Source: a virus
IMG/VR virus record: IMGVR_UViG_3300035501_000483
Strand: one strand, 5' to 3'
Length of the DNA stretch: 33,526 nt
Shown: one piece after another, positions 3,196 to 4,648 of the stretch
Numbering within the stretch: the first letter of the stretch is position 1
Layout: every line of letters starts with the position of its first letter
The notes under the pieces: model-generated
Seen by the model: the letters and a program-made list of their open reading frames with translations, nothing else
Databases searched by the model: none
Told to the model about the DNA's origin: nothing
Position numbers and translations under genes: made by a program

Positions 3196-3972
3196 GTGAT
3201 TATGAAAAAGATTAAAAATTTTCTAGTCACTGGCGATACTCATGGACATACTCTTGAACGAATTGCTAATATTCCAAAAGAATATAAAGCAGAAGAAACA
3301 GCATTGGTAATCCTTGGTGATGCTGGTTTTAATTTTTATCTAAATAGAACAGATGAAATTAGAAAACAACAAATCCAAAAGACAGGATTCCGCATTTATT
3401 GTGTACGGGGAAACCATGAAGAACGACCAGAGAATATTCCTACAATGACAGAGATTTATGATTATAATATTTGCGGCACTGTCTATATGGAAGAAAAATA
3501 TCCAGATATTCGGTATCTCCAAGACGGCTCTGTTTATAGCTTAAATGGCTATAAAACTCTTGTAATTGGTGGAGCATATTCTGTTGATAAATGGTATCGT
3601 CTTAATCAAACACCTCCTGGAGATAAATGGTCTGGATGGTTTGAGAGTGAGCAACTCACTTCAGAAGAAATGAATGATATTTCTATGAATCATACGGGAC
3701 AGTATTTCAATTTTGTTCTATCCCACACTTGCCCTTACTCTTGGCAACCTTTTGATTTATTTTTGAAAAATGTTGACCAGAATACAGTAGATAATTCTAT
3801 GGAATGGTGGTTAAACGATTTTAAAAATACTATAACTTGGAACGCTTGGCTTTTTGGCCATTTCCATGATGACAGAATCGTACAGCCTTCTGTTGAAATG
3901 TTTTATACTAATATTGATAACATAAATACAATTTTTGAAAGGCATACACAATGGAAAACATCACTGGAGTAA
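3196..3972 (+). CDS. Calcineurin-like metallophosphoesterase.
   Basis: Motifs GDTHGH, ILGDAGFN and VRGNHEE (MPP motifs I-III). RBS GAAGGTGA. TAA stop. Confidence 0.7.
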   Translation: MIMKKIKNFLVTGDTHGHTLERIANIPKEYKAEETALVILGDAGFNFYLNRTDEIRKQQIQKTGFRIYCVRGNHEERPENIPTMTEIYDYNICGTVYMEEKYPDIRYLQDGSVYSLNGYKTLVIGGAYSVDKWYRLNQTPPGDKWSGWFESEQLTSEEMNDISMNHTGQYFNFVLSHTCPYSWQPFDLFLKNVDQNTVDNSMEWWLNDFKNTITWNAWLFGHFHDDRIVQPSVEMFYTNIDNINTIFERHTQWKTSLE

Positions 3973-4304
3973 CAGTAATTAATTCTTTTTAGTAGCTTAT
4001 TAAATATGGCTGGGGTATTAGCTTTGTTGGAGTTATTTTACTTATAATTTTTGGAAGTGCAGGTTTACTACTTTTGATTGGTTGTGGAATTTATTGGAAA
4101 GAGACCTCCGCAATTTGGATAGGAATTTTTATCATTTTATTTGGTTTTTTCTTTTTTGCCATAGCTTGCAGTGAAGCAACTCCAATTTATGAAACAGAAT
4201 ATCAAATCCTAGTTGATGATAATGTATCTCTTAATGATTTTATTAAACATTATGAGATTGTACGAAAAGAAGGTTTAACTTTAATCGTTAGAGAGGCGAA
4301 ATAA
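3951..4304 (+). CDS. Small multi-TM membrane protein, paralogue A. Two consecutive in-frame TAG codons (3990-3995) are read as sense. An alternative internal TTG start lies at 4074.
   Basis: ATG 3951 with GAAAGG RBS, overlapping the end of the upstream gene. The frame continues through TAG TAG into hydrophobic helices. The C-terminus YQILVDDNVSLNDFIKHYEIVRKEGL is paralogous to the next gene. Confidence 0.45.
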
Positions 4305-4648
4305 TGGATGGTGTGACATACCTTTAGACTATTGAAGTTGCTCAATGGTCGCACGGTTGGAATACATGGTGTACAATTTTTTTATTGTTATTTATTACTT
4401 GTATATTCATCATTGTAATAGCTGCCGATAATGGCTTTGATATGCTTAATTTTATATTTATTATATTGGCAGCATTATCATTTTATTTTTGTCTTAAAGC
4501 TTATGACCATAAAGAACAGATAGAGCCTATCTATCAATATAAAGTAATAATTGATGATTCGGTTTCTATGACAGATTTTACAAAGAAATATGATTTAATT
4601 GAACAAGAAGGTTTAATTTATCTTATACAAGAAAAGGAAGAAGGGTAA
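4304..4648 (+). CDS. Small multi-TM membrane protein, paralogue B. One in-frame TAG (4325-4327) is read as sense. An alternative internal TTG start lies at 4385.
   Basis: ATG 4304 overlaps the TAA of paralogue A (TAATG). RBS GAGAGG. The C-terminus YKVIIDDSVSMTDFTKKYDLIEQEGL matches paralogue A. Confidence 0.45.

What the first reader, a model, noticed from the sequence alone, without database searches (positions are those of the whole stretch)
3951..4648. Two overlapping small membrane-protein paralogues have amber-containing N-terminal extensions and internal TTG alternative starts.
Each gene has a good ATG plus RBS start (3951; 4304 as TAATG overlap). Read-through of TAG-TAG (3990-3995) or TAG (4325-4327) then gives about 115-aa proteins with similar N-termini (GVT...GW).
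With TAG as stop, only the shorter TTG-initiated versions (4074, 4385) exist.
This could give two isoforms whose ratio reports the amber-suppression state. A holin/antiholin-like timing device is one speculative reading.
These are the only recoded genes in the otherwise TAG-free early region.
Basis: inference. Interest (0 to 1): 0.5.

Follow-up and report, generated by a model that had tools for sequence, protein, structure and literature searches.

The report
TAG-as-glutamine codons in two phage membrane genes
Two adjacent small membrane-protein genes of an uncultured phage carry TAG codons near their starts because this phage reads TAG as glutamine; they encode normal full-length members of a widespread uncharacterised phage protein family, and the shorter TTG-started versions are most likely artefacts of reading the DNA with the standard code.

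Summary
The sequence facts are correct. ATG 3951 and ATG 4304 (TAATG overlap) open two paralogous frames (BLASTP E=7e-13) that run through TAG-TAG (3990-3995) and TAG (4325-4327). They give 117-aa and 114-aa two-transmembrane proteins.

The "N-terminal extensions" are the normal, conserved N-terminus (M-x-G-V-x-I-L) of a large unnamed phage family: 1422 representatives in one search, over 2800 clusters in another, nearly all 105-125 aa. Family genes that end at a TAG stop keep this N-terminus.

The phage reads TAG as glutamine. TAG aligns to Q in 29 of 29 PhoH relatives and in most amidase relatives. No window gene ends in TAG. A tRNA with anticodon CUA lies about 8.4 kb upstream on a longer contig of the same phage. 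B's TAG and A's first TAG fall on columns where some homologues have Q.

The TTG codons lie inside TM1 at non-equivalent positions, and nothing supports short isoforms. A holin role is not supported either. A better holin candidate follows the amidase, and family members elsewhere sit in arrays of small genes with no lysin-type Pfam hit.

What remains plausible is that TAG makes A and B depend on suppression inside an otherwise TAG-free, σ70-promoted operon. That is the published recoding model. Interest is low to moderate.

The parts
3951..4304 (+). Gene A: 117-aa two-TM protein, with TAG TAG at codons 14-15 read as Gln-Gln. The start overlaps the end of the upstream metallophosphoesterase gene by 22 nt.
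   Evidence: frame, TAGs. Family HMM E=1.1e-30 on the stop-to-stop frame including the N-terminus. The first TAG falls on a column where P0005, P0013, P0017 and P0019 have Q.
3990..3995 (+). Tandem in-frame TAG-TAG of gene A.
   Evidence: Of the eight TAGTAG hexamers listed in the window, the only one in the reading frame of a gene is this one (compare).
4304..4648 (+). Gene B: 114-aa two-TM paralogue of A, with TAG at codon 8 read as Gln. Its ATG overlaps A's stop (TAATG). SD is GAGAGG.
   Evidence: Family HMM E=2.8e-33. B reads MDGVTYL[TAG]TIEVAQWSHGW; P0004 reads MDGVTILQTIEVAQYGWGW.
4325..4327 (+). In-frame TAG of gene B. It falls on a family column that is Q in 9 of the 34 aligned homologues.
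4074..4076 (+). TTG (codon 42 of A, end of TM1). It is the start of the 76-aa ORF called under the standard code (database entry P0001). Probably not a real start.
4385..4387 (+). TTG (codon 28 of B, start of TM1). It is the start of the 87-aa standard-code ORF (P0002). No SD. Probably not a real start.
2112..2140 (+). σ70-type promoter (TTGATT-17-TGnTATAAT) heading the inferred unit NTase - metallophosphoesterase - A - B.
   Evidence: It follows the terminator at 2080-2113.
2168..3972 (+). Upstream genes inferred to be co-transcribed, both TAG-free: nucleotidyltransferase (2168-3175) and metallophosphoesterase (3202-3972).
4633..4662 (+). Intrinsic terminator (13-bp stem plus T-run) spanning the stop codon of B and closing the unit. 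Fresh promoters follow at 4664-4692 and 4744-4772.

Best explanation
A (3951-4304) and B (4304-4648) are ordinary full-length genes of a phage that decodes TAG as glutamine (genetic code 15). They encode two diverged tandem paralogues of a widespread, unnamed phage protein family.

The family layout is a short conserved N-terminal strand (M-x-G-V-x-I-L), two transmembrane helices, and a ~45-aa C-terminal beta-alpha-beta-beta domain (Y-x-V-x-I-D-D-S-V-S-M-N-E-F...Y-E-I-I-x-Q-E-G-K-I-Y).

The three TAGs are Gln codons. They are read by a phage suppressor tRNA with anticodon CUA, encoded about 8.4 kb upstream on a longer contig of the same phage.

The 76- and 87-aa TTG-initiated ORFs are what a standard-code gene caller reports. 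They are most likely not made as functional products.

The consequence is inferred, not shown. Synthesis of A and B depends on TAG suppression, while the co-transcribed TAG-free nucleotidyltransferase and phosphoesterase do not. Without suppression, only 13- and 7-residue peptides would be made. This places A and B in the phage's TAG-dependent gene set, with PhoH, the tail-fibre-like genes, the amidase and the two genes at 26547-28465.

The biochemical role of the family is unknown. My best guess is a membrane-anchored accessory protein of large phages, possibly acting as a pair, and not the lysis holin.
For: **TAG is a sense codon for Gln**
- There are 28 in-frame TAGs in 10 of 38 genes I delimited, and none of the 37 whose stop lies in the window ends in TAG.
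- TAG aligns to Q in 29 of 29 PhoH relatives. In the amidase it aligns to Q in 14 of 15 and 11 of 15 relatives, the rest being TAG.
- A tRNA with anticodon CTA lies at L002 1507-1576 on a contig of the same phage. Rfam scores it 42 bits as tRNA.

**The long forms are real**
- A profile built only from the post-TAG parts found 1422 representatives, nearly all 105-125 aa. A wider search found over 2800 clusters.
- In the family alignments the N-terminal G, V, I and L are at least 90% conserved.
- B's TAG and A's first TAG fall on columns that are Q in some homologues.
- Homologues in related phages start MQGVTILNEF (L008-L011) and MDGVTILNNY (L012), with no TAG.
- Family genes that end at a TAG stop keep the N-terminus.
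- The AF2 model of homologue P0004 (pLDDT 76) predicts a beta-strand at residues 4-12 ahead of the TM hairpin.

**Unit structure**
- Promoter at 2112-2140 and terminator at 4633-4662.

**Precedent**
- The same recoding pattern is published: Borges et al., bioRxiv 10.1101/2021.08.26.457843.
Against: - There is no direct evidence of translation, such as proteomics or Ribo-seq.
- A's ATG has only a weak SD (-3.5 kcal/mol), and TTG 4074 has a slightly better chance-level site (-5.0). Internal initiation in A therefore cannot be excluded from sequence alone.
- The suppressor tRNA is outside the window. On one contig of the same phage (L001) the corresponding locus holds a non-canonical tRNA-like sequence that ARAGORN does not call.
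- The family's function is unknown, so 'not a holin' rests on context and negative searches.
- All three TAGs lie in the first 15 codons. A third family gene (L046) has TAG at codon 9. This could hint at selection for an N-terminal gate, not neutrality.
Confidence: 0.85

Rival explanations
1. The N-terminal TAGs are a selected translational gate. A and B are transcribed early from a σ70-type promoter together with TAG-free enzymes, but they are held back until suppressor tRNA activity is high. The tandem TAG-TAG in A gives a steeper threshold than the single TAG in B. This is compatible with the best explanation but adds adaptive timing.
For: - A and B are the only TAG-bearing genes in 13.9 kb and sit in a promoter-to-terminator unit with two TAG-free genes.
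- The two genes at 26547-28465 show the same embedding.
- TAGs are absent from gyrase, ligase, phosphoesterases, polynucleotide kinase and flotillin across about 30 related loci, but recur in PhoH, the amidase, the holin candidate and a GIY-YIG gene.
- All three TAGs fall within codons 8-15, and L046 has TAG at codon 9.
- Borges et al. propose exactly this logic.
Against: - The positional bias is weak: P about 0.06 if only Gln sites are allowed, and L046 was found by a biased route.
- Unbiased surveys found no in-frame TAG in about 45 (IMG/VR) and 78 (metagenome) other family genes.
- TAGs in the holin-candidate homologues are mostly C-terminal.
- Some relatives carry TAG in RNase H and ThyX, so TAG is not strictly confined to late genes.
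- In L001 a σ70-like promoter precedes the non-canonical CUA tRNA-like sequence (read from the sequence). If that holds for the suppressor generally, suppression may be available early.
Confidence: 0.3
2. One reading: each gene yields two isoforms, a long ATG form by amber read-through and a short TTG form. Their ratio reports suppression state and acts like a holin/antiholin pair.
For: - TTG codons exist in frame, and standard-code gene callers report 76- and 87-aa ORFs.
- TTG 4074 has a modest SD-like site (-5.0 kcal/mol).
- The proteins are small and membrane-embedded.
Against: - The TTGs are at non-homologous positions (codon 42 against codon 28), inside TM1.
- The short forms lose the nearly invariant N-terminal motif and TM1.
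- TTG 4385 has no SD.
- No holin family matched.
- The genes are not adjacent to the lysin. A two-TM gene directly follows the amidase at 17245-17553, and its homologues in relatives are themselves TAG-recoded.
- Family members in other phages lie in arrays of small genes with no lysin-type Pfam hit.
Confidence: 0.06
3. A and B are pseudogenes knocked out by amber mutations, or their TAGs are assembly or sequencing errors.
For: In-frame stop codons very early in two adjacent genes would be typical of decay if the code were standard.
Against: - The identical sequence occurs on 7 independent contigs from different samples.
- The frames are otherwise intact, with conserved family residues throughout.
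- TAG is demonstrably sense in conserved genes of the same phage.
- No window gene uses TAG as a stop.
Confidence: 0.03

Closest known systems
Genetic code 15 (TAG to Gln) recoding in uncultivated gut phages (crAss-like, Lak and others; Borges et al. bioRxiv 10.1101/2021.08.26.457843; proteomic validation PMC9523058; phAss-1 group PMC10607447)
   Same: - In-frame TAG appears only in a subset of genes, here tail-fibre-like, amidase, a homing-type endonuclease and small membrane proteins.
- Replication genes are TAG-free.
- A suppressor tRNA(CUA) is present in the genome.
- TAG aligns to Gln.
- GC content is low (~32%).
   Different: - This is a different, unnamed lineage. GyrB is below 36% identical to anything in GenBank phages, and there is no nucleotide match.
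- Here the TAG-bearing membrane genes are not in the lysis cassette. They close a σ70-promoted unit of nucleotide or RNA-processing enzymes.
Lambda S105/S107-type holin-antiholin dual-start motifs
   Same: Small membrane proteins for which two in-frame starts were proposed to give two products.
   Different: - By general knowledge, dual-start holins use starts a few codons apart, differ by a charged residue, and sit next to the endolysin.
- Here the putative second starts are 27 and 41 codons downstream, inside TM1.
- No holin family matched, and the genes are 11.6 kb from the amidase.
Programmed stop-codon read-through isoforms (for example Qbeta A1 read-through coat protein)
   Same: A stop codon that is sometimes decoded as sense.
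   Different: In those systems termination yields a functional short protein and read-through adds a C-terminal extension (general knowledge). Here termination would give only a 7- or 13-residue peptide, and TAG is a reassigned codon across the genome.
The unnamed two-TM phage family itself
   Same: Same length, N-terminal M-x-G-V-x-I-L motif, two TM helices and C-terminal domain. Adjacent pairs recur (L071, L074, L086), and P0010 is a fused pair.
   Different: A and B carry in-frame TAG. None of about 120 other family genes surveyed without bias does.

Membership tests
Code-15 (TAG=Gln) recoded phage gene | In-frame TAG inside a coding sequence that is conserved on both sides of the TAG | tested here: met
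   The family HMM matches the frames across the TAGs (E=1e-30 and 3e-33). The N-terminal motif upstream of the TAGs is conserved in the family.
Code-15 (TAG=Gln) recoded phage gene | TAG positions align with glutamine in homologues | tested here: met
   - PhoH: 29 of 29 relatives have Q.
- Amidase: 14 of 15 and 11 of 15 have Q.
- B's TAG falls on a column that is Q in 9 of the 34 aligned homologues.
- A's first TAG falls on a column that is Q in 4 of the 34 homologues.
- A's second TAG falls on a variable column.
Code-15 (TAG=Gln) recoded phage gene | TAG not used as a terminator in the genome | tested here: met
   All 37 genes whose stop lies in the window end in TAA or TGA. This covers only the 33.5-kb window.
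Code-15 (TAG=Gln) recoded phage gene | Suppressor tRNA with anticodon CUA encoded by the phage | tested here: met
   L002 1507-1576 on a contig of the same phage. It is not in the window. L001 has a divergent tRNA-like version.
Code-15 (TAG=Gln) recoded phage gene | Peptides with Gln at TAG positions | not testable with these tools
   This needs proteomics.
Holin / antiholin (dual-start type) | Match to a known holin family | tested here: not met
   - Pfam and PHROGs: no holin family.
- Foldseek BFVD: only uncharacterised proteins.
- PDB: nothing.
Holin / antiholin (dual-start type) | Gene adjacent to the endolysin | tested here: not met
   The amidase lies at 15898-17217, 11.6 kb away, with its own two-TM gene at 17245-17553. 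Family members elsewhere lie in arrays of small genes with no lysin-type Pfam hit.
Holin / antiholin (dual-start type) | Two starts a few codons apart giving products that differ by an N-terminal charge | tested here: not met
   The TTGs are 41 and 27 codons downstream of the ATGs, inside TM1, at non-equivalent positions.
Holin / antiholin (dual-start type) | Membrane permeabilisation or a lysis-timing phenotype | not testable with these tools
   This needs an experiment.
Unnamed two-TM phage family (MxGVxIL ... YKVTIDDSVSMNEF ... QEGKIY) | Length 105-125 aa, N-terminal motif, two TM helices and the conserved C-terminal domain | tested here: met
   A is 117 aa and B is 114 aa, and both carry all elements. 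The AF2 model of homologue P0004 gives the secondary-structure layout.
Programmed read-through isoform pair | The terminated product is itself a functional protein | tested here: not met
   Termination at the TAGs would leave 13- and 7-residue peptides.

The most novel reading that the evidence does not exclude
The early-codon TAGs, including a tandem TAG-TAG, are a selected translational gate. They uncouple two membrane proteins from the TAG-free enzymes transcribed with them from an early-type σ70 promoter. A and B would then appear only once the phage has switched the cell to TAG=Gln decoding, with A needing a higher suppression level than B. The unnamed two-TM family would be a membrane effector whose premature expression harms the infection.
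Probability: 0.25. Interest if true: 0.5.

Novelty: new member of a known kind. Interest (0 to 1): 0.25.

Why it matters
- **Annotation.** Standard-code gene calling has put truncated 76- and 87-aa versions of these proteins into public databases (P0001, P0002). Any analysis of this phage needs translation table 15.
- **Biology.** The locus is a compact example of selective TAG use: two membrane-protein genes gated by TAG inside an otherwise TAG-free, σ70-promoted unit. It could serve as a test case for the idea that recoded phages use the code switch to time translation.
- **An open family.** The work also exposes a large unnamed phage membrane-protein family (thousands of clusters, no Pfam model) that often occurs as adjacent pairs.
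- **Not new in kind.** None of this is a new type of mechanism.

Tried and rejected
- **Close relatives in GenBank phages.** Megablast of 25 kb gave no match. tblastn of A and of a typical family member gave no match.
- **First searches for homologues.** A single-sequence search with A returned only the truncated self-hit. The first IMG/VR scan with the two-sequence alignment found nothing, because its patterns were too specific. Relatives then came through the cREC_REC neighbour, PhoH and the wider alignment.
- **Synteny via the metallophosphoesterase.** No relatives found.
- **Functional assignment.** Pfam gave only sub-threshold hits driven by the TM segments. PHROGs, PADLOC, Foldseek BFVD and PDB gave nothing informative.
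- **Structure of A itself.** I modelled homologue P0004 instead.
- **Shine-Dalgarno strength.** I expected it to separate the ATG starts from the TTG starts. It does for B but not for A, so the case for A's ATG rests on homology.
- **N-terminal TAG bias.** I tested whether it is general in this lineage. It is not in the holin-candidate homologues.
- **Link between phage lineages.** I tried to link the L008-L011 lineage to the recoded PhoH loci by blastn and found no match. Whether that lineage is recoded remains unknown.
- **Pseudogene and assembly-error readings.** Rejected: see the rival explanations.
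Full report
**1. What is in the sequence**

The window is a low-GC (~32%) stretch with all genes on the + strand. At the reported coordinates:
- An ATG at 3951 opens a frame that reads MENITGVTVINSF, then TAG TAG (3990-3995), then continues without interruption to TAA at 4302-4304.
- An ATG at 4304 shares its A with that TAA. It reads MDGVTYL, then TAG (4325-4327), then continues to TAA at 4646-4648.
- Under the standard code, the first start codons after the TAGs are TTG 4074 and TTG 4385, giving ORFs of 76 and 87 aa.
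- With TAG read as an amino acid, the products are 117 aa (A) and 114 aa (B). They align over their full length, including the parts upstream of the TAGs (BLASTP E=7e-13, 27% identity).
- Each has two strongly hydrophobic segments.

**2. The phage reads TAG as glutamine**

- I delimited 38 genes in the window. Ten contain in-frame TAG (28 codons in all). None of the 37 whose stop lies in the window ends in TAG.
- I fetched about 30 related phage loci through the PhoH-like gene. The residue aligned to the window's TAG is Q in 29 of 29 PhoH relatives. In the amidase it is Q in 14 of 15 and 11 of 15 relatives, and the rest are themselves TAG.
- The GIY-YIG motif reads YVG[TAG]S.
- The window holds no tRNA. 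A longer contig of the same phage (L002) carries a tRNA with anticodon CTA at 1507-1576, about 8.4 kb upstream of gene A, in a small tRNA cluster. Rfam scores it 42 bits as tRNA.

This is genetic code 15, which is well documented in uncultivated gut phages (papers listed and read).

**3. The "extensions" are the normal N-terminus of a large family**

The first search returned only the truncated self-entry. I then built a profile from the post-TAG parts of A and B alone and ran it against 1.8 billion representatives. It found 1422 proteins at E<=1e-3, nearly all 105-125 aa. A wider profile found more than 2800 clusters. None has a Pfam model or a meaningful name.

Their sequences begin M-x-G-[VI]-x-I-L, followed by two hydrophobic helices and a conserved C-terminal domain (Y-x-V-x-I-D-D-S-V-S-M-N-E-F...Y-E-I-I-x-Q-E-G-K-I-Y). 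In the alignments the N-terminal G, V, I and L are conserved in at least 90% of sequences, as strongly as the C-terminal domain.

The match around the TAGs is direct:
- B reads MDGVTYL[TAG]TIEVAQWSHGW. P0004 reads MDGVTILQTIEVAQYGWGW.
- A reads ...VINSF[TAG][TAG]LIKYGWG. P0005 reads ...ILNSFQAQVGSTWGF, and P0013 reads ...ILNEFQAVID.

Related phages found through the neighbouring cREC_REC gene carry one homologue each. These start MQGVTILNEF and MDGVTILNNY and contain no TAG.

I ran DNA-level surveys seeded on C-terminal patterns, so they are blind to N-terminal TAGs:
- IMG/VR gave about 45 further unique family genes, none with an in-frame TAG.
- Metagenomes gave 78 full-length genes with no internal TAG. 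At least four of these end at a TAG stop (L106, L117, L114, L150) and still carry the N-terminal motif.

An AlphaFold2 model of homologue P0004 (pLDDT 76) predicts this order: beta-strand 4-12, helices 20-39 and 46-63, then beta-alpha-beta-beta at 72-106. With a two-helix hairpin, the N-terminal strand and the C-terminal domain lie on the same side of the membrane. I infer, without coordinates to check it, that the strand may complete the C-terminal sheet.

**4. The TTG short forms**

- TTG 4074 is codon 42 of A, at the end of TM1. TTG 4385 is codon 28 of B, at the start of TM1. The positions are not equivalent in the alignment.
- Either short form would lack the conserved N-terminal strand. 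A-short would lose nearly all of TM1, and B-short about half of it.
- Anti-SD pairing energies are -6.4 kcal/mol for ATG 4304 and -2.8 for TTG 4385. They are only -3.5 for ATG 3951 against -5.0 for TTG 4074.
- The median of 26 gene starts is -6.15, and 9.5% of internal codons score as well as TTG 4074.

The RBS argument therefore holds for B and not for A. A's start overlaps the upstream gene by 22 nt and may rely on translational coupling (inference). Internal initiation in A cannot be excluded from sequence alone, but nothing supports it.

**5. Context and likely mechanism**

A and B close a compact unit:
- terminator at 2080-2113;
- promoter TTGATT-17-TATAAT at 2112-2140;
- nucleotidyltransferase (2168-3175);
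- metallophosphoesterase (3202-3972);
- A, then B;
- a 13-bp terminator at 4633-4662;
- new promoters at 4664 and 4744.

The surrounding 13.9 kb encodes the following genes, all TAG-free:
- a major-vault-protein-like gene;
- cREC_REC;
- an exonuclease;
- an intein-bearing RNA ligase;
- a Macro domain protein;
- a polynucleotide kinase;
- further phosphoesterases;
- a flotillin.

TAG occurs in these genes:
- PhoH;
- three tail-fibre-like paralogues (my label from their N-terminal motif; Pfam gave no hit for the two I tested);
- the first exon of the amidase;
- the two genes at 26547-28465, the first of them GIY-YIG, with 8 TAGs each.

Those last two genes are likewise embedded between TAG-free genes downstream of a σ70-type promoter at 26149.

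Across the related loci, TAG recurs in PhoH, the amidase, the holin candidate and a GIY-YIG gene. It never appears in gyrase, ligase, phosphoesterases, kinase or flotillin.

This matches the published proposal that recoding restricts some genes, including homing endonucleases and transmembrane proteins, to the phase when TAG is suppressed. I infer that A and B are translated in full only when the CUA tRNA is active, and that otherwise translation ends after 13 or 7 codons. Whether that delay is selected or incidental is open:
- All three TAGs lie in codons 8-15. One more family gene (L046) has TAG at codon 9. L046 was found by looking for truncated entries, and the code of that contig is not established.
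- If only Gln sites are considered, the positional bias has P of about 0.06.
- TAGs in the holin-candidate homologues lie at codons 8, 43, 86, 88, 95 and 96.

**6. Holin reading**

- No holin family matches in Pfam or PHROGs.
- Fold searches return only uncharacterised phage proteins, or nothing.
- The amidase lies 11.6 kb away (15898-16302 plus 16660-17217). It is split by a group I intron and has an SLH domain.
- A two-TM gene (17245-17553) directly follows the amidase. Its homologues in relatives are often TAG-recoded.
- Family members on other 86-199 kb contigs sit in long arrays of small genes of unknown function with no lysin-type Pfam hit.

The family's function remains unknown. Adjacent pairs (L071, L074, L086) and one fused pair (P0010) suggest the two copies work together.

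**7. Verdict**

- The sequence facts are right.
- The long forms are real members of an unnamed family.
- TAG is glutamine.
- The dual-isoform and holin/antiholin ideas are not supported.
- What remains is a clean, small example of the known code-15 gating pattern, plus an annotation correction.
- Novelty: a new member of a known kind. Interest: about 0.25.

Noticed in passing
window 15898-17217 (intron 16267-16599): The endolysin-like amidase gene is split by a group I intron (Rfam RF00028, 63 bits). Exon 1 holds two in-frame TAGs, and exon 2 ends in an SLH cell-wall-binding domain, which points to a host with an S-layer.
   Followed up: partly
window 26547-28465: Two adjacent genes carry 8 in-frame TAGs each, the highest density in the window. 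The first has a GIY-YIG domain and an N-terminal TM/coiled-coil segment. The second has repeated Cys motifs and a weak DUF2726 hit. They sit between TAG-free genes downstream of a σ70-type promoter at 26149.
   Followed up: partly
L001 1562-1632 versus L002 1430-1576 (same phage, upstream of the window): L002 has a canonical tRNA with anticodon CTA, preceded by what looks like the 3' half of another tRNA. At the same place L001 has a non-canonical tRNA-like sequence with a CUCUAAA anticodon loop and an atypical T-loop, which ARAGORN and Rfam do not call. The suppressor tRNA locus therefore appears to vary between strains.
   Followed up: partly
window 6160-8565: An RNA ligase gene (PHA02142 OB fold plus RNA_ligase domain) is interrupted by an intein with a LAGLIDADG endonuclease. 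The homologue in related phages (L008, 433 aa) lacks the intein.
   Followed up: no
window 1-2070 and 11570-13009: The phage encodes a major-vault-protein-like protein (MVP shoulder and Vault_3 domains) and a flotillin/SPFH protein. Both are unusual cargo for a phage and both are TAG-free.
   Followed up: no
window 2168-11551: A dense cluster of nucleic-acid-end-processing genes: nucleotidyltransferase, three metallophosphoesterases, cREC_REC (cyclic-phosphate-processing receiver), RNase T-like exonuclease, RNA ligase, Macro domain and an AAA_33 kinase. It looks like an RNA-repair or counter-defence island.
   Followed up: no
window 15250-15879, 17635-18168, 18259-18723: Three paralogous tail-fibre-like genes, each with two TAGs, flank the amidase/holin-candidate cassette. 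The start of the third is unclear: there is no ATG near the frame start, and a TAG lies at codon 10 of the open frame.
   Followed up: no
L046 2905-3264 (Logan SRR24653715 contig): Another member of the two-TM family reads MPGVEILH[TAG]SEV..., with a TAG at codon 9. A second, TAG-free family copy lies 2.4 kb downstream. It is not established whether that contig uses code 15.
   Followed up: partly
L071 2800-3504, L074 558-1262, L086 2758-3547; protein P0010: Family members recur as abutting or overlapping adjacent pairs, and once as a single 206-aa fusion of two copies. This suggests the proteins act as hetero-oligomers.
   Followed up: no
L114 1183-2280: One metagenome contig carries an intact family gene followed by what look like frameshifted or truncated further copies.
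   Followed up: no
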